Sequence record: NC_048194.1
From: Escherichia phage vB_EcoM_WFH
DNA length: 64,000 bases
Direction: 5' to 3' (one strand)
The translations under genes were made by a program, and so were the position numbers. Shown here piece by piece: positions 1,748 through 8,575 of the stretch (its first letter is position 1; each line of letters begins with the position of its first letter). A model generated the notes under the pieces. It worked only from the letters and a program-made list of their open reading frames with translations. It searched no databases and had not been told where the DNA came from.

Positions 1748-1962
1748 CAGTCTTCACCTTGAGATTCAAGACAAGTAAGAACAAGCCACGTCATCGGAAG
1801 AATCAAAACCAGAGAAATAAGTGACCAAATGGACCAACACAAGATGACAGACTTGAATGTATGAACGTCGCCAAACACAGCAGTGAAACAAAATCCCATC
1901 ACGAAAGCAAGCGCGGTGGAGTGGTTGTCAATGGCTTTGATGGCACGGTCGATGAGTTTCAT
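1747..1962 (-). CDS. small membrane protein (holin-like topology, function unproven)
   Basis: 71 aa, two hydrophobic segments (ALAFVMGFCFTAVFG and ILCWSIWSLISLVLILPMTWLVL), short charged C-terminus. Confidence 0.35.
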   Translation of the reverse strand: MKLIDRAIKAIDNHSTALAFVMGFCFTAVFGDVHTFKSVILCWSIWSLISLVLILPMTWLVLTCLESQGED

Positions 1963-2043
1963 ATTACCTCCGGTTTTGAGTTAATATGATTATAACGCAG
2001 AGTTTCAGAAAGGCAAACTTTTTGTGAATTTAAATTAAAAAAA

Positions 2044-2064
2044 TGGCCAGATTATTTCTGGCCA
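2044..2064. other. stem-loop TGGCCAG-n7-CTGGCCA flanked by A-run, in divergent intergenic region
   Basis: Perfect 7-bp inverted repeat with A7 upstream on plus strand (U-tract on minus-strand reading). Confidence 0.3.
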
Positions 2065-2109
2065 AAAGATCACCCTTTATCCACTACTAAGCTGGAATCA
2101 CAATTTTAC

Positions 2110-2139
2110 TTGATATAGCTGTCGCAAGCAAACTATAAT
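2110..2139 (+). promoter_or_regulatory. sigma70-like promoter (TTGATA-18-TATAAT)
   Basis: Near-consensus -35 and -10 hexamers with 18-bp spacer; the -10 abuts the annotated ATG at 2140, so the true terminase start may be the downstream Met at 2173. Confidence 0.45.
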
Positions 2140-3600
2140 ATGAATAAAATATTAACACATAATTGGAAAGTCATGTACCAGTTGAATCCTGCTTTAAGAG
2201 AAGTCTGGAAGACGAAAGCGCGATACAAAGTCATATACGGCGGTCGTGCATCTTCCAAATCGCACGATGCCGCTGGTTTTGCTATTTATTTGGCGGCAAA
2301 CTTCAAATTAAAATTCCTTTGCGTTCGACAATTCCAGAACAAGATTTCTGAATCAGTATATACGCTATTAAAAGATAAAATAGAGATTTCTGATTTTAAA
2401 GACGAGTTCAACTTATTAAAAAACTCTATTGAACACAAAAGAACAAAATCTGAATTTTTATTTTACGGTATCGCACGCAACGTTGACGAAATCAAATCAA
2501 CAGAAGGTGTTGATGTTCTTTGGCTTGAAGAAGCGCATGCACTGACTGAAGAGCAATGGGACATTATTGAGCCGACAATTCGTAAGGAAGGGTCCGAAAT
2601 ATGGATCATATTTAACCCTGATGAAGAGGCTGATTTCGTCTACCAGAACTTTGTTATGCGACCGCCGAAAAATGCCATCGTTAAGAAGATTAACTGGCAG
2701 GACAATCCATTCTTGTCGCAAACAATGCTGGATGTTATCGCTGGCATGTATGAGCGCGACCCGAAAAAGGCAGAACACGTTTATGGCGGAGTGCCGAAGA
2801 CAGGTGGCGATAAGTCGGTCATCAACCGTGCATTCGTCAAAGCCGCGCTAAACCTCCACAAACACCCTACGCTGGGATGGAGCTTGTCAGGGTCTAACCG
2901 TATAGGCTTCGACGTGGCGGACGACGGCGACGACTTAAACGCCACAGCGTTTGTCACAGGCAACGTATTACGTGGCATCAAGACATGGGAAGGTCTGGAA
3001 GATGAATTGCTTAAGTCCGCAAGCGGAGTCTGGAAAGACGCATTGACATTCGGCGCATCAATCACCTATGACGCCATCGGTGTTGGTGCATTTGCTGGTT
3101 CAAAATTTGATGAGCTTAATGAGTATGCAATCCATGAAAATCCAACATTCCCAAGAATCGAATTTAATGCGTTCAACGCGCAAGGTGCTGTTGATGATCC
3201 TGATGACGTCTTCCTTGAGTTACCACACGTTGAAATACTCAATAAAGACCATTTCGCAAACATAAAAGCGCAAAAATGGACTGAGATTGCCGAACGATTC
3301 AGAAAGACATATGAGTATGCGACAGGGCAAGCCGTATATCCGACCGATGAGTTGATTTCCATCGACACAGACGGCATCCCAGAACTTGGTATTCCCGCTT
3401 GGTCTGCGGAAGAAATTGAGACGTTTCTTTTTGAGATGTCAGCACCGCGCAAAGACACGTCTGTACTTGGCAAGTTCAAAGTTGAATCGAAAAAGGATAT
3501 GGCAAAGCGTGGAGTCAAATCGCCTAACAAAGCGGACGCAGCAATCATGGCATTGATGAAACCAATTGTTGCAGCATCCGGCTTCTTCTCTAACCTTTAA
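2140..3600 (+). CDS. terL: terminase large subunit
   Basis: 486 aa; N-terminal ATPase Walker A-like KVIYGGRASSKSHDAAGF, Walker B-like VDVLWLEEAH, C-terminal nuclease-like region; first large gene of the morphogenesis block. Confidence 0.85.
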   Translation: MNKILTHNWKVMYQLNPALREVWKTKARYKVIYGGRASSKSHDAAGFAIYLAANFKLKFLCVRQFQNKISESVYTLLKDKIEISDFKDEFNLLKNSIEHKRTKSEFLFYGIARNVDEIKSTEGVDVLWLEEAHALTEEQWDIIEPTIRKEGSEIWIIFNPDEEADFVYQNFVMRPPKNAIVKKINWQDNPFLSQTMLDVIAGMYERDPKKAEHVYGGVPKTGGDKSVINRAFVKAALNLHKHPTLGWSLSGSNRIGFDVADDGDDLNATAFVTGNVLRGIKTWEGLEDELLKSASGVWKDALTFGASITYDAIGVGAFAGSKFDELNEYAIHENPTFPRIEFNAFNAQGAVDDPDDVFLELPHVEILNKDHFANIKAQKWTEIAERFRKTYEYATGQAVYPTDELISIDTDGIPELGIPAWSAEEIETFLFEMSAPRKDTSVLGKFKVESKKDMAKRGVKSPNKADAAIMALMKPIVAASGFFSNL

Positions 3601-3603
3601 CAA

Positions 3604-3843
3604 TTAAAGCATTCCGTGCTGAAGGTCGAGCTTTCTTGCGGCAAACGACCTGGCACGGAATCGCTTACCCGCCCTTACTGCCTGTCGAATTTTCTTTTGC
3701 AAACACTTACGGTCAAAATCGTTGCGGTCGACGGCTTCGAGTAAATCGCGACGCAGTGCACCCAGTGTCGACTTTTCGGAGACTTCAACGCCCAGCGCGG
3801 CTGCAACATCTTTCAAAACATCGAGTTCGGTTAAAGTTCTCAT
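3604..3843 (-). CDS. hypothetical protein with Rho-N/SAP-like N-terminal helix motif
   Basis: 79 aa, MRTLTELDVLKDVAAALGVEV... resembles Rho_N-type helix-extended-helix; basic C-terminus; opposite strand to flanking terL/portal. Confidence 0.4.
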   Translation of the reverse strand: MRTLTELDVLKDVAAALGVEVSEKSTLGALRRDLLEAVDRNDFDRKCLQKKIRQAVRAGKRFRARSFAARKLDLQHGML

Positions 3844-4256
3844 TTGATAATCCCCTTGATGTCTGATTCTGCCATAAAGATTGGAGTGCCGCCGCCAGGA
3901 ACAATCGAGCGCGTGACCTTGTCAAACATATCGTTTTCTTCAACTTGAATACGATAAAATTTATTTTTGGATGAAGATGGGCACAATCCCATAAATTTGC
4001 CGATGCCGCGAACGCATTCATCTTCAAAGTATACTGTTTCACCTTGAATGGAGTCGATGTCGTCTACTGGATAGACCTTGCGACCCAATAGCCACTCATC
4101 CAAAGTCGCCTGCAAGACGTTGCGCGCATCTAAAATCCACGGGTCAATAGTAGCACCTTCATATCGCGCAGCAGTGGCCTTTGCCAGTTCTTCATATTCG
4201 CATACGTTAACGACTTCGCCGTTGTGCAAGACGACAAATACAATTGTTGTGCTCAT
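3840..4256 (-). CDS. hypothetical protein (138 aa)
   Basis: Track ORF with ATG start, overlapping stop of downstream gene (operon pair); no recognised motif. Confidence 0.4.
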   Translation of the reverse strand: MSTTIVFVVLHNGEVVNVCEYEELAKATAARYEGATIDPWILDARNVLQATLDEWLLGRKVYPVDDIDSIQGETVYFEDECVRGIGKFMGLCPSSSKNKFYRIQVEENDMFDKVTRSIVPGGGTPIFMAESDIKGIIK

Positions 4257-4418
4257 TTCAATCTCCTTTCGTTTGGTTAACTAAAATATAACTCAAAATG
4301 ATACAAAAGCAAAATATTTTATGAACTATTTATGATCACCATACATATCATTTGCTTACAAACACATGAATATTTATAATATAGATTGATTCCCTTTCAC
4401 TGTCAGGTGGCGTTAACA

Positions 4419-6794
4419 ATGAAAATTCTTGGCATAAAACTCTGGGAGAAGACGCAACCAGAAGCCGAACCAGCGGAGATGCCGCCAGGCGACCCATTGG
4501 CACCGTTTGAACGCCTTGAAAGGCGCGGCAGCGGTCAACGCTGGGAAAAGACTGAAAGCAATCGACCGACCTTTAAAACGGTTGATGACTTCCCTTTATA
4601 TGAGCCTGATATTAATGGCGATGGTGTTGCAATCATAAAAGGTCGTTCAGTCGATTCCGCAACAGTATCCAAAAAGGTTATGGATAATGCCTTAAAGAAC
4701 ATCAGTTCAGAAGGGCAAGTCAACCCATACACAGTACCTATTCAACTTCAAAACTGGTATTTGTCACAGTCATTCATCGGCTATCAAGCTTGTGCCATCA
4801 TCGCACAGCATTGGCTGGTGAACAAGGCATGTTCCATGGTAGGCCGCGATGCGGTCCGTAAAGGTTGGGAAGTCAAATCCAGTTCTGAGTCAGAATTGTC
4901 AGTACAGGCAAGCGAACGCCTAAAGCAAATTGATAAAGAATTTAATATCAAAGAGCACTTAGTTGAAGCCGAACGATTCAAAAATATTTTTGGTATCCGC
5001 GTCATCATATTTGATGTGCGTAGCGATGACCCAGAATATTACAGCAAGCCTTTTAACATTGATGGCGTGACAAAGGGGTCTTATAAGGGAATCATTCAGG
5101 TTGACCCTTATTGGATGATGCCGTTTCTGACGTCTGAAAACACCGCCGACCCTGCATCACAGCACTTCTATGATCCAGAATACTGGGTGATCAGCGGACA
5201 ACGTTATCATCGCAGCCACCTAATCATCTTGCGCAATGATGAGCCAGCTGATATTCTCAAGCCAACTTATATTTACGGCGGCATTCCTCTGACTCAGCAG
5301 ATTTATGAACGCATCTATGCCGCTGAACGTACCGCTAACGAAGCGCCATTGCTGGCAATGTCCAAGCGTACAACCACGCTGCGGACAGACGTTGACAAGG
5401 CGATTGCCAATGAGCGGTCTTTTGCAGAACGTCTGATGATGTGGATCAAGTACCGCGACAACTATGCAGTCAAAGTGCTTGGCCAAAAAGAAGAGATGGA
5501 CCAGTTTGACATTAACTTGTCAGACTTCGACAGCATCATCATGAACCAGTACCAGCTTGTGGCCGCAATCGCAAAAGTTCCGTCGACCAAACTGCTTGGG
5601 ACTTCGCCAAAAGGCTTTAACGCCACTGGTGAATTCGAGATGGTCAGCTATCACGAAGAGTTGGAAACGTGCCAGCAGCATGACCTGACAAAAATTCTCG
5701 ACCGCCATTACAAAATCCTTCTCAAATCAGAAGGGGTGGATGTCGATGTTAAGGTTGCATGGGAACCAGTTGGCTCACTTACTGCTACTCAACTTGCAGA
5801 AATCAATGATAAGCGAGCCAACACTGGCAAAACTCTTATTGATGCTGGCGTCATTTCTCCTGATGAAGAGCGCGACCGCATCAAAGACGACAAAAACAGC
5901 GGCTACAACCGTCTGCCGGAAGACGCAGCAGAAGAAACCCCAGGGATGTCTCCAGAGAATATGGCATTGCTTGGCAAGTCTGCTGGTGAAGTCCTGCAAG
6001 GTAAGGCCGATATTGAACAGGCGAAAGCTGATGTCGTTAAGATGGGCGGCCAGTTCTATAGCGAAACAGGTATTATGCCAGAGGGTGCCGCGCGTGGTGA
6101 GTTGGCGGAAAACCCTGACAAAGCGCCTGTCGAAATCAACATGGACGATACCGATGATGAATCAAGCCATCAGGTTGATGTCCTAACGCAGTTGAAAGAA
6201 GGGCTGGAGGGTATTGCGGATTACTACCTGAAAGAAGGTCAGGATGTGGATTTTGACCCTCAAAAAGATTCACGGTCGGTGCAACCGTCTACCCTTCCAA
6301 GCGTTAAAGGACACGTCGTCAACTTACGCCACAACGTGGGTAAAATGGACGCAGCATCATTACCTAAGATGAAGTTGCACGGAATGATTCTTGGCATTGA
6401 GAATCCGCGAAACAGCATTCGTAGAGGAAACAGCCTTGACGGTGAATGGGCCGTGAAGATGCCGCACCACTACGGATTCATCAAGGGCACCAAGGGCGCA
6501 GACGGTGATGAAGTCGACTGCTTTGTGGGTCCAAATCTGAAGTCGCCGAAAGTCTTTATCGTGAACCAAAACGATAACTACTCTGGCGAGTTTGATGAAC
6601 ACAAGTGTATGCTTGGATTCGATTCAGCAGAAGAAGCGAAAGAAGCTTATCAAGCATCATTTGGTAACGGTTGGAACGGATTCGACTCAATCCACGAATT
6701 AGATGTGAACTCATTCAAGGAGTGGTTGAAGGGTGATTGCTCTCAAGCATACGGAGCACTCAATAATCCTACTAATTCACCGAAGCAAGGTTGA
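4419..6794 (+). CDS. putative portal protein with C-terminal inorganic-pyrophosphatase-like domain
   Basis: ATG at 4419 with RBS aggtgg (track start 4386 is TTG). Position immediately after terL and size suggest portal; C-terminal ~120 aa carry DGDEVDC (PPase signature pattern) and GFDSAEEAKEAYQASF resembling E. coli Ppa C-terminus. Confidence 0.55.
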   Translation: MKILGIKLWEKTQPEAEPAEMPPGDPLAPFERLERRGSGQRWEKTESNRPTFKTVDDFPLYEPDINGDGVAIIKGRSVDSATVSKKVMDNALKNISSEGQVNPYTVPIQLQNWYLSQSFIGYQACAIIAQHWLVNKACSMVGRDAVRKGWEVKSSSESELSVQASERLKQIDKEFNIKEHLVEAERFKNIFGIRVIIFDVRSDDPEYYSKPFNIDGVTKGSYKGIIQVDPYWMMPFLTSENTADPASQHFYDPEYWVISGQRYHRSHLIILRNDEPADILKPTYIYGGIPLTQQIYERIYAAERTANEAPLLAMSKRTTTLRTDVDKAIANERSFAERLMMWIKYRDNYAVKVLGQKEEMDQFDINLSDFDSIIMNQYQLVAAIAKVPSTKLLGTSPKGFNATGEFEMVSYHEELETCQQHDLTKILDRHYKILLKSEGVDVDVKVAWEPVGSLTATQLAEINDKRANTGKTLIDAGVISPDEERDRIKDDKNSGYNRLPEDAAEETPGMSPENMALLGKSAGEVLQGKADIEQAKADVVKMGGQFYSETGIMPEGAARGELAENPDKAPVEINMDDTDDESSHQVDVLTQLKEGLEGIADYYLKEGQDVDFDPQKDSRSVQPSTLPSVKGHVVNLRHNVGKMDAASLPKMKLHGMILGIENPRNSIRRGNSLDGEWAVKMPHHYGFIKGTKGADGDEVDCFVGPNLKSPKVFIVNQNDNYSGEFDEHKCMLGFDSAEEAKEAYQASFGNGWNGFDSIHELDVNSFKEWLKGDCSQAYGALNNPTNSPKQG

Positions 6795-6795
6795 T

Positions 6796-7647
6796 ATGGC
6801 TTTTAAAGCTTCGAAAAAACGTGAACGCCGCTCACCCGATAGAATCGGGCGCGGCAGTCCGATAATCCCATCAAACGCTATTGCGATGGCCTACCGTCGT
6901 GAGATGAAAGGTCTTTGCTATGCGATGATTGATGACTATCAGGCAGGAATTTCAGAGTGGCTTGAAAAGAAGCAGGTGCAGAAGTTCTTTGCGCAAGACT
7001 CTGCTGATTCAACATTCCAAACTCTTATGAAACGTCTGCAGCTGAAATGGGCAAAGGCGTTTGCTCGTGTTGGGTCGAAGATTGCCGCTGATTTTATCAA
7101 GTCGGTTGAAAAGGGTGCTACTTCTGCTACATTCGCCAGCCTTAAGTCCGCAGGCATAGAAGCGCCAAAGGCCACATATAACAAATTCGTTGAGAACACT
7201 CTTAGAACAAGCGAGACGTTTAACACGACTCTAGTGACTAAGGTCGGCGAGGATATTCACAACAGAGTGTACGAAGCAGTCATGCTTTCGCTGACTTCGC
7301 CCGACCCAGCCCAGCAAGGCACGTCAGGCATTCAGGCGGCGCTGCGAAACGTAAAACACTTCTCTGCAAAGAGAGTCGACTTAATCGCTAAAGACCAGAC
7401 AAGCAAATTGTATTGCGTTCTAAGCGATGAAAGGATGCGCCAGAATGGAGTTGAAGAATTTGAATGGGCGCACTCAGGAGCAGGAAAGGAGCCGCGAATC
7501 TCTCATGAACATGTCGACGGAATGAGATTCAAACTTGATGACAAGCGTCTATGGGAAGTGGGCGGAGAGTTGAAGTTCAAAAAGGGTGACATCGGTCCTC
7601 CTGGATGGGCGATACACTGCAAGTGCAGAAAAATACCAATCATTTGA
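6796..7647 (+). CDS. head morphogenesis protein (Mu gpF / SPP1 gp7-like)
   Basis: ATG at 6796 directly after portal stop (track start 6733 is an upstream GTG overlapping portal); C-terminal ...GPPGWAIHCKCRK motif typical of MuF-like family. Confidence 0.6.
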   Translation: MAFKASKKRERRSPDRIGRGSPIIPSNAIAMAYRREMKGLCYAMIDDYQAGISEWLEKKQVQKFFAQDSADSTFQTLMKRLQLKWAKAFARVGSKIAADFIKSVEKGATSATFASLKSAGIEAPKATYNKFVENTLRTSETFNTTLVTKVGEDIHNRVYEAVMLSLTSPDPAQQGTSGIQAALRNVKHFSAKRVDLIAKDQTSKLYCVLSDERMRQNGVEEFEWAHSGAGKEPRISHEHVDGMRFKLDDKRLWEVGGELKFKKGDIGPPGWAIHCKCRKIPII

Positions 7648-7654
7648 GGTCATT

Positions 7655-8575
7655 ATGACGATACCAATCAGCACGTTTCCTCTATCTGGACAAACGCCAG
7701 TATTGCCTGCTGTATATGCTAACGGTTTGGCGATTGTTTCGGAATTCACATCCGATAAAAACCTGATTGTTCCATTGAGTCCGCCATTGGCGTCTGGATA
7801 CAATTCAGTTGGCCAGTTCTTTATGATCGGTAATGATGGCGATTCTACCAGCAAGCCGAATCTGACACTTTCAGTTCCCAAAATGAACATAACAGACGTG
7901 CAGACTGGTTTAACTGCATCTACGATCACCATCGCTTTTGGAGAAGCAGTGATTATAGGCATGGAGTCTGGAGGGTCCAATAATGCTGTCGCCGTTAAGG
8001 TAGTCAAATCCAGCAGCAACCAATACACACTACCAGCGGCAACGGCTTCTATTCTCGGCGGCGTCAAAATAGGAAGTGGCATAAGCGTTGCAGGTGACGG
8101 TACAATTAGTGTGACTCAATACTCATTACCGATTGCATCAGCATCAACCTTGGGTGGCATAAAGGTAGGAACGACACTATCAATTGATGGTTCTGGCGTC
8201 CTTAATGCTGCTGCAAGTACTGTGCAGAACGCAAGCAACAGCGTAAGCAATCCTCCGACAACTCTGGTGAATCTGGCAACCTTAAACCTGCCTGCAGGGA
8301 AATGGCTTGTGACAGCAAGTCAGTTGACTGTCGCGACAGCAGGAGTTCAAGCGAATACCGGAATTACAGTCAAACTGTCAACAAGTAATTCAGATATTAC
8401 GGATGATGCATTTACAATGTCAGCTGGAATTCGGGCTGCAGGTCGTTTCGGCGGCAATATTCCAACAAAGATAATTACCCTTGCCGCGCCTGGCAACGTG
8501 TATCTAAACTATCAATGCACAGACGCATTGACATCTACCGTTTACGGACAGATCACCGCAATTAAGTTGAACTAA
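7655..8575 (+). CDS. virion structural protein with fibre-like internal repeats
   Basis: ATG at 7655 with RBS gagg; repeated ...ASILGGVKIGSGISV.. / ..ASTLGGIKVGTTLSI.. units, Ser/Thr/Gly-rich. Confidence 0.45.
   Translation: MTIPISTFPLSGQTPVLPAVYANGLAIVSEFTSDKNLIVPLSPPLASGYNSVGQFFMIGNDGDSTSKPNLTLSVPKMNITDVQTGLTASTITIAFGEAVIIGMESGGSNNAVAVKVVKSSSNQYTLPAATASILGGVKIGSGISVAGDGTISVTQYSLPIASASTLGGIKVGTTLSIDGSGVLNAAASTVQNASNSVSNPPTTLVNLATLNLPAGKWLVTASQLTVATAGVQANTGITVKLSTSNSDITDDAFTMSAGIRAAGRFGGNIPTKIITLAAPGNVYLNYQCTDALTSTVYGQITAIKLN

What the first reader, a model, noticed from the sequence alone, without database searches (positions are those of the whole stretch)
3604..4256. Opposite-strand two-gene insert between terminase and portal (moron-like)
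In most tailed phages the portal gene directly follows terL. Here two minus-strand genes (138 aa and 79 aa, the latter with a Rho_N/SAP-like helix motif) are wedged between them, flanked by AT-rich intergenic DNA on the portal side. Inserts of this kind between conserved morphogenesis genes are frequently accessory cargo (defence, anti-defence, toxin-antitoxin). Neither protein matches a family I can name.
Basis: inference. Interest (0 to 1): 0.45.

Follow-up and report, generated by a model that had tools for sequence, protein, structure and literature searches.

The report
Conserved leftward two-gene operon, not insert
The two opposite-strand genes between the terminase and portal genes are real, but they are the trimmed-down remnant of an old, lineage-wide block of small non-structural phage genes rather than recently inserted cargo, and their function is still unknown.

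Summary
Two minus-strand genes (138 aa, 3840-4256; 79 aa, 3604-3843; ATGA overlap) lie between terL and the portal gene of a Wifcevirus-type E. coli myovirus, next to a 162-bp AT-rich spacer.

The "moron-like insert" reading does not hold.
- Both genes occur in all 27 Wifcevirus records.
- Both are under purifying selection (dN/dS 0.03-0.12).
- Both have genome-typical GC.
- Both have homologues at the same position in Pantoea phage Kyle and four metagenomic relatives.
- The 138-aa protein is homologous to Pseudomonas phage PB1 gp17 (phrog_5124), which is likewise the first leftward gene divergent from the portal gene.

Across PB1-like phages the terL-portal gap holds 1-14 mostly leftward genes. 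Wifcevirus has the minimal version. It has lost a lipoprotein protease and a DUF2786/DUF7168 gene that its closest outgroup keeps.

The 138-aa protein is acidic, with a small alpha/beta domain and an SH3/Tudor/Sm-like barrel. The 79-aa protein has an acidic half and a very basic tail. A Rho_N/SAP motif was not confirmed. There are no toxin-antitoxin, defence, TerS, plasmid or E. coli chromosomal matches.

Most likely this is a sigma70-driven non-structural operon encoding macromolecule-binding proteins. Interest is low.

The parts
3840..4256 (-). Gene A, 138 aa. Acidic (pI 4.6, net charge -8) cytoplasmic protein. N-terminal beta-beta-alpha-beta domain (about residues 1-43) and C-terminal SH3/Tudor/Sm-like beta-barrel (about residues 59-137). 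Homologue of Pseudomonas phage PB1 gp17 (phrog_5124).
3604..3843 (-). Gene B, 79 aa. Translationally coupled to A (ATGA overlap). N-half acidic (pI 4.6), C-half Arg/Lys-rich (pI 11.9), with one conserved Cys and a conserved aromatic-Arg motif.
   Evidence: ORF. Present in 27/27 Wifcevirus records. dN/dS 0.05-0.06. Homologues in L006 (66% identity), L007, L008, L009 and Kyle gp24 (35%, E 6e-11). pI values. No Pfam or PDB match.
4285..4312 (-). Inferred leftward sigma70-type promoter P_L for the A-B operon: -35 TTGCTT (4312..4307), 16-nt spacer, -10 TATATT (4290..4285). Predicted start site is about 20-25 nt upstream of the A start codon.
   Evidence: Both hexamers and their spacing are conserved in L006-L009 and Kyle although the spacer sequence has diverged. 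It belongs to a motif family with 8 copies in the window against 0.72 expected. No transcript data, so this is inference.
4263..4268 (-). Shine-Dalgarno sequence AAGGAG of gene A, 6 nt before the ATG.
   Evidence: Read directly from the sequence. An RBS is annotated at the same place in phage Mansfield.
4332..4351 (.). Inverted repeat ATGAT-N10-ATCAT between the two divergent -35 elements. Possible operator or UP-like element.
   Evidence: Sequence. The ATACATATC core is partly conserved in relatives. Function not tested.
4352..4380 (+). Inferred rightward sigma70-type promoter P_R for the portal/head operon: TTGCTT-N17-TATAAT.
   Evidence: Conserved as TTGCTT or TTGATT plus TATAAT in all enterobacterial relatives. 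Kyle's equivalent was found by the scanner. PB1 has an annotated sigma70 promoter at the same place.
3607..3665 (.). Stable stem-loop immediately after the terL stop codon and inside the last ~20 codons of gene B. Likely a shared 3'-end or terminator structure for the two convergent transcription units.
   Evidence: Free energy -31 kcal/mol, z -4.6 on the + strand and -2.4 on the - strand. The outer stem is invariant in seven Wifcevirus loci. PB1 and MyoSmar have a terminator at the equivalent terL boundary. No covariation is available.
2173..3600 (+). terL (large terminase, Terminase_3), convergent with gene B. Context.
   Evidence: PF04466 E 3e-37. Start as annotated in relatives.
4419..6794 (+). 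Portal gene with a C-terminal InPase domain, divergent from gene A. Context.
   Evidence: PF06381 E 3e-88 and PF18823 E 3e-46. phrog_4660.

Best explanation
The two ORFs form one small leftward operon: promoter P_L, gene A, gene B (translationally coupled), then a hairpin at the terL boundary. It is not an insertion.

It is the minimal surviving form of an ancestral block of leftward, non-structural genes that separates terL from the portal gene in PB1-like myoviruses. In Pbunavirus this block is referred to as part of the early genome region. Gene A is the positionally fixed, promoter-proximal member of that block, from Pseudomonas PB1 (gp17) to E. coli Wifcevirus. Gene B is conserved in the enterobacterial branch. 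The Wifcevirus lineage deleted a lipoprotein serine-protease gene that lay between A and B, and a DUF2786/DUF7168 gene that lay next to terL.

Inferred mechanism: host sigma70 RNA polymerase transcribes the operon from P_L. Both products act inside the infected cell, not in the virion.
- A has no conserved catalytic-type residues. It most likely works as a binding or adaptor protein, using its SH3/Tudor/Sm-like barrel against a host or phage protein or nucleic acid.
- B most likely binds nucleic acid through its Arg/Lys-rich tail.

Shown: the genes are real, they are conserved, the synteny, the gene losses, and the fold class of A. Inferred: the promoter, the timing, the intracellular role and the binding functions.
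For: Real genes under purifying selection:
- dN/dS is 0.03-0.12 for A and 0.05-0.06 for B, against 0.013 for terL.
- Both have Shine-Dalgarno sequences and share an ATGA overlap.

Conservation and synteny:
- Both are in 27/27 Wifcevirus records.
- A and B homologues lie in the same portal-proximal cassette in Kyle and in four metagenomic contigs.
- A against PB1 gp17: hhalign probability 97.7%, E 1.6e-12. PB1 gp17 is phrog_5124 and is the first leftward gene next to the portal gene.
- gp17 orthologues are in 298 Pbunavirus records.
- The gap holds 13 leftward genes in PB1, 8 or 9 in MyoSmar, 14 in Salmonella PCSE1, 5 in Kyle and 1 in Pluto.

Gene loss in Wifcevirus:
- The closest outgroup L006 (TerL 91%, portal 81% identical) has A-protease-B-DUF2786.
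- Neither lost gene is found in the window or in Wifcevirus records.

Other support:
- Native composition, GC 0.45-0.51.
- A and B diverge much faster than terL and portal: 54% and 66% against 91% and 81% identity to L006. This is typical of host-interaction genes.
- Promoter hexamers are conserved across lineages, and the spacer is 96-99% identical where neighbouring dS is 0.3-0.9.
- Charge properties.
- Pbunavirus ORFans of this region are called early-region genes, and two of them are host-directed: 14-1 gp12 against RNA polymerase and YIP against YfiN (PMC8085984; PMC10914365).
Against: - There are no transcript, proteome or phenotype data for these genes in any phage.
- The promoter class TTGCTT-N16/17-TATAAT also drives the portal operon, so it says nothing about timing.
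- The SH3-like fold is generic, and no specific structural neighbour was found. Foldseek against PDB gave E > 0.2, and BFVD returned only family members.
- Nucleic-acid binding by B rests on charge alone.
- A virion or assembly role is not excluded experimentally.
Confidence: 0.6

Rival explanations
1. A and/or B are anti-defence factors, for example anti-restriction proteins. An acidic early protein (A) or a nucleic-acid-coating basic protein (B) would protect incoming phage DNA or block a host immunity protein.
For: [quoted passage not shown]
- A is acidic (net charge -8) and promoter-proximal in a sigma70-driven operon.
- A and B evolve faster than their neighbours.
- Neighbouring genes at this locus in relatives include accessory functions.
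Against: - No similarity to any known anti-restriction or anti-defence family in Pfam, PHROGs or PDB.
- A's model is a compact two-domain fold with no resemblance to any named DNA-mimic structure in the searches run.
- A is conserved across hosts with very different defence repertoires (Pseudomonas, Pantoea, E. coli), which argues for a more basic role.
- No experimental link exists.
Confidence: 0.15
2. A and/or B have a morphogenetic role tied to their neighbours. Examples would be a chaperone or regulator of portal or terminase assembly, or a minor internal virion protein, which would explain the fixed position beside the portal gene.
For: - A keeps a fixed position next to the portal gene from PB1 to Wifcevirus.
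- The pair survives while other genes of the gap were lost.
- B is basic, like some internal DNA-associated proteins.
Against: - Opposite strand and a separate promoter from the head operon.
- A and B diverge far faster than terL and portal.
- A is absent from Pluto, BcepF1 and MyoSmar, which have homologous terL and portal genes.
- B is absent from PB1.
- TerS of the Pbunavirus E217 is a different protein encoded ~58 kb from terL (PMC9611059), and neither A nor B matches any PDB chain.
Confidence: 0.1
3. One reading: a recently acquired moron-like cargo cassette, variably present between otherwise adjacent terL and portal genes.
For: Opposite-strand orientation, an own promoter, an AT-rich flank and a hairpin at the 3' end resemble an autonomous transcription unit. 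The wider locus is variable in content.
Against: - Present in 27/27 Wifcevirus records.
- Native GC and GC3.
- Homologues at the same position in Kyle, L006-L009 and PB1.
- No relative has terL adjacent to the portal gene.
- The closest outgroup has more genes here, not fewer.
Confidence: 0.03
4. A and B are a type II toxin-antitoxin-like pair: an acidic upstream partner neutralising a basic downstream toxin.
For: Sizes, opposite charges and the ATGA translational coupling.
Against: - In every relative outside Wifcevirus a protease gene separates A from B, and PB1 has A without B.
- No toxin or antitoxin domain was found, and PADLOC gave no hit.
- An exhaustive HMM search of 1.84 billion representative proteins found only 4 clusters. 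The three whose contigs were retrieved all lie on phage-type contigs. The contig of the fourth (P0012) was not looked up.
- No match in 72,556 plasmids (A protein) or in 5,426 complete E. coli genomes (DNA of the pair).
Confidence: 0.03

Closest known systems
Pseudomonas phage PB1 gp17 (ORF16) and its Pbunavirus orthologues, PHROG family phrog_5124 (function unknown)
   Same: Homologous over the full length to gene A (hhalign probability 97.7%, E 1.6e-12). Similar size (133 against 138 aa). Same position and orientation: first leftward gene, divergent from the portal gene across an AT-rich promoter spacer.
   Different: Only about 25% identical. The window protein scores just E 2e-4 over two-thirds of the PHROG profile. 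In PB1 it heads a 13-gene block, here a 2-gene operon. No function is known for either protein.
Pantoea phage Kyle gp26/gp24 and the A-protease-B-(X)-DUF2786 cassette of related uncultured phages (L006-L009)
   Same: A and B homologues (25-54% and 28-66% identity) in the same order, on the same strand, behind the same promoter, between portal and terL.
   Different: Those cassettes contain a lipoprotein trypsin-like protease between A and B, 0-3 further small genes, and a DUF2786/DUF7168 gene next to terL. Wifcevirus has none of these.
Pbunavirus early-region ORFans with known host targets (14-1 gp12 binding the RNA polymerase alpha subunit; YIP peptides binding the diguanylate cyclase YfiN)
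   Same: Small lineage-restricted proteins from the same leftward non-structural region of related phages. They act by protein-protein interaction with host factors (PMC8085984; PMC10914365).
   Different: No sequence relationship to A or B. No target of A or B is known. In the published screen of 38 early ORFans only gp12 and the YIPs gave a phenotype, and whether the gp17 orthologue was among those tested is not stated.
Morons (autonomous promoter-gene-terminator insertions between conserved phage genes)
   Same: Opposite-strand unit with its own promoter and a 3' hairpin between two morphogenesis genes.
   Different: Not variably present, not compositionally distinct, and ancestral at the locus.

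Membership tests
PB1 gp17-like proteins (phrog_5124) | Significant full-length sequence homology to PB1 gp17 | tested here: met
   hhalign of the 7-sequence family profile against PB1 gp17: probability 97.7%, E 1.6e-12, 118 aligned columns. phmmer of single sequences against PB1 proteins picks only gp17, E 1e-4 to 2e-6.
PB1 gp17-like proteins (phrog_5124) | Match to the PHROG profile itself | tested here: inconclusive
   E 2.1e-4, 22 bits, residues 4-98 against profile positions 6-88 of 133. Kyle gp26 scores similarly, E 1.8e-4. PB1 gp17 scores E 8e-85.
PB1 gp17-like proteins (phrog_5124) | Position: first leftward gene divergent from the portal gene | tested here: met
   True in the window, Kyle, L006-L009, L014, PB1 and probably Salmonella PCSE1.
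Moron | Variable presence among close relatives, with flanking genes adjacent in relatives that lack it | tested here: not met
   Present in 27/27 Wifcevirus records. No examined relative has terL adjacent to the portal gene.
Moron | Base composition different from the surrounding genome | tested here: not met
   GC is 0.451 (A) and 0.508 (B) against 0.462 for the window. GC3 is 0.47 and 0.50 against 0.46-0.49 in terL and portal.
Moron | Own promoter and terminator | tested here: inconclusive
   A conserved sigma70-like promoter and a 3' hairpin are present, but the same holds for the ancestral leftward block in PB1. No transcript data.
Type II toxin-antitoxin pair | Recognisable toxin or antitoxin domain, or a defence-system model hit | tested here: not met
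   No Pfam, NCBIfam or PADLOC hit.
Type II toxin-antitoxin pair | The two genes are always adjacent and co-inherited, with homologues on chromosomes or plasmids | tested here: not met
   A protease gene separates them in all relatives outside Wifcevirus, and PB1 has A only. No plasmid or E. coli chromosomal matches. Only 4 representative clusters among 1.84 billion proteins.
Rho_N / SAP / HeH helix-extended-helix domain (claimed for the 79-aa protein) | Match to the domain profile or to a reference member | tested here: not met
   No such Pfam family at E <= 10 in any of six family members. hhalign against the E. coli Rho N-terminus, with the Rho sequence supplied from memory, gives probability 0.16%.
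Small terminase (TerS) | Homology to a known TerS, in particular the Pbunavirus E217 TerS (PDB 7UXE) | tested here: not met
   Sequence and profile searches of all PDB chains with A and B gave no TerS hit. The E217 TerS gene lies ~58 kb from terL (PMC9611059). A's predicted fold is a beta-barrel, not a helical TerS core.
SH3-like barrel superfold (Sm/Tudor/KOW/PsaE), C-terminal domain of A | Five-stranded small beta-barrel topology | tested here: met
Known anti-phage defence systems | Hit to a PADLOC model | tested here: not met
   No hits at E <= 10.

The most novel reading that the evidence does not exclude
Gene A (acidic, promoter-proximal, lineage-wide) and/or gene B (basic tail) are the still-unidentified genome-protection or anti-restriction function of Wifcevirus. 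These phages resist nearly all tested restriction-modification and defence systems without any known protection mechanism. If so, the PB1 gp17 family would be a new class of broadly conserved anti-defence protein in therapeutic Pbunavirus phages as well.
Probability: 0.1. Interest if true: 0.6.

Novelty: new member of a known kind. Interest (0 to 1): 0.2.

Why it matters
It corrects a tempting misreading. In PB1-like myoviruses, which include the Pbunavirus phages widely used in therapy and the very fast-replicating Wifcevirus phages, terL is a lone rightward gene inside a leftward non-structural region. Genes found between terL and the portal gene are therefore ancestral, not cargo.

The analysis also links an E. 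coli phage ORFan to the PB1 gp17 family, which is present in about 300 Pseudomonas phage genomes. It shows that Wifcevirus kept only two genes of this block. That makes these two genes the best candidates for the indispensable functions of the block, in a host (E. coli K-12 derivatives, BASEL phages Bas98-101) where they can be studied genetically.

Beyond that, this is an ordinary pair of uncharacterised small phage genes.

Tried and rejected
Searches that found nothing useful:
- Pfam, NCBIfam, PADLOC and PDB sequence searches with single sequences and with family profiles gave nothing significant.
- The weak CarD_TRCF_RID and WGR Pfam hits of A (E 0.1-0.2) were followed up on seven family members and did not recur. 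They were dropped.
- The weak phrog_2130 hit of B recurs in only 2 of 6 members and was dropped.
- Rfam found no RNA family in 1900-4700.
- The IMG/VR scan with the A profile returned only four Wifcevirus contigs.
- The literature searches found no function for PB1 gp17 orthologues. The supplementary TSS tables of the 14-1 cappable-seq paper are not held.

Structure work:
- The first AF2 run, with a 7-sequence near-identical alignment, was poor (pLDDT 55). It was replaced by a 10-sequence divergent alignment (pLDDT 83).
- Foldseek against PDB and BFVD gave no specific neighbour.
- The afdb50 library was unavailable.

Hypotheses rejected:
- TerS identity for A or B.
- MyoSmar's portal-proximal gene is not an A homologue.
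- Deliberate antisense read-through of terL from P_L was considered. It was downgraded because a strong hairpin sits at the B/terL boundary and PB1 has a canonical terminator there.

Error noted: my first portal dN/dS values were wrong because of a one-base coordinate error. They are not used.

Full report
**What the window is.** Bases 2000-7000 are 98.9% identical to Shigella phage CWP003 and 91-99% identical to 26 other Wifcevirus-type E. coli/Shigella myovirus records. More distant matches are to Pantoea phage Kyle, Burkholderia BcepF1, Luteibacter Pluto, Serratia MyoSmar and about 300 Pseudomonas Pbunavirus (PB1-like) records. terL (PF04466) is at 2173-3600. The portal gene (PF06381 with a C-terminal InPase domain, phrog_4660) is at 4419-6794. 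A Mu-F-like head morphogenesis gene follows.

**The observation.**
- A's stop overlaps B's start (ATGA). Both starts are preceded by Shine-Dalgarno sequences.
- B's stop is 3 nt from terL's stop.
- The 162-bp spacer between A and the portal gene has GC 0.28, against 0.46 for the window.
- Against six other Wifcevirus genomes, dN/dS is 0.03-0.12 for A and 0.05-0.06 for B, with dS up to 0.94. Both are therefore real protein-coding genes.
- GC and GC3 of both genes match the genome.

**Distribution within Wifcevirus.**
- tblastn finds both proteins in all 27 Wifcevirus records: A at 94-100% identity, B at 96-100%.
- The word-indexed search of 5.8 billion proteins and an exhaustive HMM search of 1.84 billion representatives found only a handful of relatives of A, four representative clusters in all.
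- The contigs of three of those clusters were retrieved. All three are 23-73 kb phage-type contigs.
- There is no match to the pair's DNA in 5,426 complete E. coli genomes, and none to A in 72,556 plasmids.

**Synteny beyond the genus.**
- In Pantoea phage Kyle and in four uncultured relatives (L006-L009), the portal-terL gap holds a leftward cassette. Its order is:
  1. an A homologue (25-54% identical);
  2. a ~190-aa trypsin-like protease with a lipoprotein signal peptide (…LAGC);
  3. a B homologue (28-66% identical; Kyle gp24 gives E 6e-11);
  4. zero to three further small genes;
  5. a DUF2786/DUF7168 gene convergent with terL.
- The pairwise comparisons are, and the B alignment.
- In Pseudomonas phage PB1 the gap holds 13 leftward genes, gp05-gp17.
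- PB1 gp17, the first leftward gene and divergent from the portal gene, is phrog_5124. It is homologous to A over its full length (hhalign probability 97.7%, E 1.6e-12). Its orthologues are in 298 Pbunavirus records.
- PB1 gp09 is the DUF2786/DUF7168 gene. B has no detectable PB1 counterpart.
- The gap holds one leftward gene in Pluto, two rightward genes in BcepF1, eight or nine leftward genes in MyoSmar (including a T4 Imm-like gene), and 14 in Salmonella phage PCSE1 (including an endolysin and a methyltransferase). PCSE1's first gene is a probable A homologue. MyoSmar's first gene is not.
- A separated terL and portal is therefore the ancestral state of this lineage. The gap is a variable block of non-structural genes, and A is its positionally fixed member.

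**Direction of change in Wifcevirus.** L006 is the closest outgroup: TerL is 91% and portal 81% identical to the window, A 54% and B 66%. It carries A-protease-B-DUF2786. Neither the protease nor the DUF2786 gene is found in the window. Among 50,697 phage records, the protease gene is found only in three Pantoea phage records. The DUF2786 gene is found in 338 records, and no Escherichia or Shigella phage appears among the organisms and records that the search listed. Wifcevirus has therefore lost genes here. The deletion of the protease gene recreated the same ATGA coupling, now between A and B. This is the opposite of an insertion.

**Regulatory anatomy (inferred).**
- The spacer is 96-99% identical among Wifcevirus genomes whose flanking genes have dS 0.3-0.9.
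- Aligned with L006-L009 and Kyle, it shows two back-to-back sigma70-type promoters with conserved hexamers and spacing:
  - P_R (+): TTGCTT 4352-4357, N17, TATAAT 4375-4380, leading to the portal gene.
  - P_L (-): TTGCTT 4312-4307, N16, TATATT 4290-4285, about 20-25 nt upstream of A's start. In relatives it reads TTGACT…TATAAT or TATAGT.
- An inverted repeat ATGAT-N10-ATCAT (4332-4351) lies between them.
- The pattern TTG[ACT][CT][TA]-N16-17-TATA[AT]T occurs 8 times in the window, against 0.72 ± 0.76 in shuffles. These are members of a genome-wide promoter family. Because the portal promoter belongs to the same class, the promoter does not reveal timing.
- A stable stem-loop (3607-3665, -31 kcal/mol, z -4.6 on the + strand and -2.4 on the - strand) sits right after terL's stop and within B's last ~20 codons. 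On the minus strand it is followed by GCUUUAAUUGUU.
- Its outer stem is invariant in seven Wifcevirus loci, so there is no covariation evidence.
- PB1 and MyoSmar have terminators at the equivalent boundary.
- No Rfam family matches the region.

**The proteins.**
- A is acidic (pI 4.6, net charge -8).
- With a divergent 10-sequence alignment, AlphaFold2 gives pLDDT 83. The model has an N-terminal beta-beta-alpha-beta domain (about residues 1-43) and a C-terminal small beta-barrel (about residues 59-137).
- The invariant residues (I5, V6, F7, A25, W40, R59, G72, F77, D79, R83, G84, G86, I103, I133, G135) are mainly hydrophobic and glycine positions with a few charged ones, with no conserved His, Cys or Ser. 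This suggests a binding module rather than an enzyme (inference).
- B has an acidic N-half (pI 4.6) and an Arg/Lys-rich C-half (pI 11.9). It has an invariant Cys and a conserved aromatic-Arg motif.
No such Pfam hit appears in six family members at E <= 10, and hhalign against the Rho N-terminus gives probability 0.16%.
- Neither protein has a signal peptide or a transmembrane segment by inspection.
- Neither is TerS. In the Pbunavirus E217 the TerS gene is ~58 kb from terL (PMC9611059), and no PDB chain matches A or B.

**Interpretation.** The best-supported account is a conserved leftward operon of non-structural, intracellular proteins. It is the minimal remnant of the ancestral block that in Pbunavirus is treated as early-region ORFans. 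Two of those ORFans are known to act on host proteins: 14-1 gp12 on RNA polymerase and the YIP peptides on YfiN (PMC8085984; PMC10914365). A and B evolve several-fold faster than terL and portal, as host- or regulation-directed proteins usually do. I commit to the following, at about 0.6 overall:
- A is a non-enzymatic adaptor or binder, acting through its SH3-like barrel.
- B is a nucleic-acid binder, acting through its basic tail.
- Both are expressed from a host sigma70-type promoter.

The anatomical and evolutionary parts of this account are much firmer than the functional parts.

**Rivals.**
- An anti-defence role is about 0.15. It is attractive because Wifcevirus resists RM systems with no known protection mechanism (PMC11990801), but nothing ties these two genes to that resistance.
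- A morphogenetic role is about 0.1.
- A moron or recently acquired cargo cassette is about 0.03.
- A toxin-antitoxin pair is about 0.03.

**Verdict.** The "moron-like insert" interpretation is largely not supported, although the locus is an accessory-gene hot spot in the wider lineage. This is an ordinary, already-annotated pair of hypothetical phage genes. The new points are the link of A to the PB1 gp17 family and the evidence for gene loss at this locus in Wifcevirus. Interest is 0.2.

Noticed in passing
L006 5411-6019; L007 5414-6013; L008 5426-5998; L009 1857-2417; L001 (Kyle) 4775-5320: Relatives encode a ~190-aa trypsin-like serine protease (PF13365) with a lipoprotein signal peptide (…LAGC lipobox) between the A and B genes. 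A phage-encoded envelope-targeted lipoprotein protease is unusual. It is absent from all Wifcevirus, and among sequenced phages it was found only in Pantoea phages.
   Followed up: partly
L006 6311-7072; L005 (PB1) 4029-4808; L003 (Pluto) 3484-4230; L001 3398-4147: A DUF2786+DUF7168 gene lies in the terL-portal gap, directly convergent with terL in Kyle, Pluto and L006-L008, and further from terL in PB1 (gp09). It matches 338 phage records, including Pseudomonas, Serratia, Xanthomonas, Acinetobacter and Vibrio phages. No Escherichia or Shigella phage appears among the organisms and records listed by that search.
   Followed up: partly
window 4352, 9088, 23454, 49514 (+); 19468, 15073, 4312, 2016 (-): A promoter-like motif family TTG[ACT][CT][TA]-N16-17-TATA[AT]T occurs 8 times, against 0.72 ± 0.76 expected from shuffles. 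It probably marks the phage's host-RNA-polymerase promoters.
   Followed up: partly
window 4257-4418: The A-portal spacer is 96-99% identical among Wifcevirus genomes whose flanking genes have dS 0.3-0.9. It is therefore under stronger constraint than synonymous sites. It contains the inverted repeat ATGAT-N10-ATCAT (4332-4351) between the divergent promoters.
   Followed up: partly
window 2044-2064 (minus strand): A canonical intrinsic terminator (8-bp GC-rich stem plus T7) lies on the minus strand just upstream of terL. No minus-strand gene lies between it and gene B. It can only stop leftward transcripts running antisense through terL, and it sits just before the next leftward promoter (2016..1989). 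It is annotated as a terminator in phage WFC.
   Followed up: partly
window 3604-4256 compared with L012 (FEC19) and L014: Synonymous divergence is mosaic. Against FEC19, A has dS 0.12 while terL has 0.56. Against L014, A has dS 0.94 while B has 0.38 and terL 0.58. This implies recombination breakpoints around and within the pair.
   Followed up: no
window 4419-6794: The portal protein carries a C-terminal inorganic-pyrophosphatase-like InPase domain (PF18823, E 3e-46). The same domain occurs in giant polyvalent and DarB-like phage proteins in PHROGs.
   Followed up: no
window 7586-8575: A 329-aa fibre-like ORF sits inside the head module, between the Mu-F-like gene and the region where relatives place the prohead protease gene. 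It is annotated 'tail fiber protein' in Bas99 and has a faint Phage_head_fibr hit in L014. PB1 has only two tiny ORFs at this position.
   Followed up: no
P0008 (Logan contig, 17.9 kb): One metagenomic copy of gene A is frameshifted after residue ~98 and reads through to 156 aa. This is probably an assembly error or a pseudogene.
   Followed up: no
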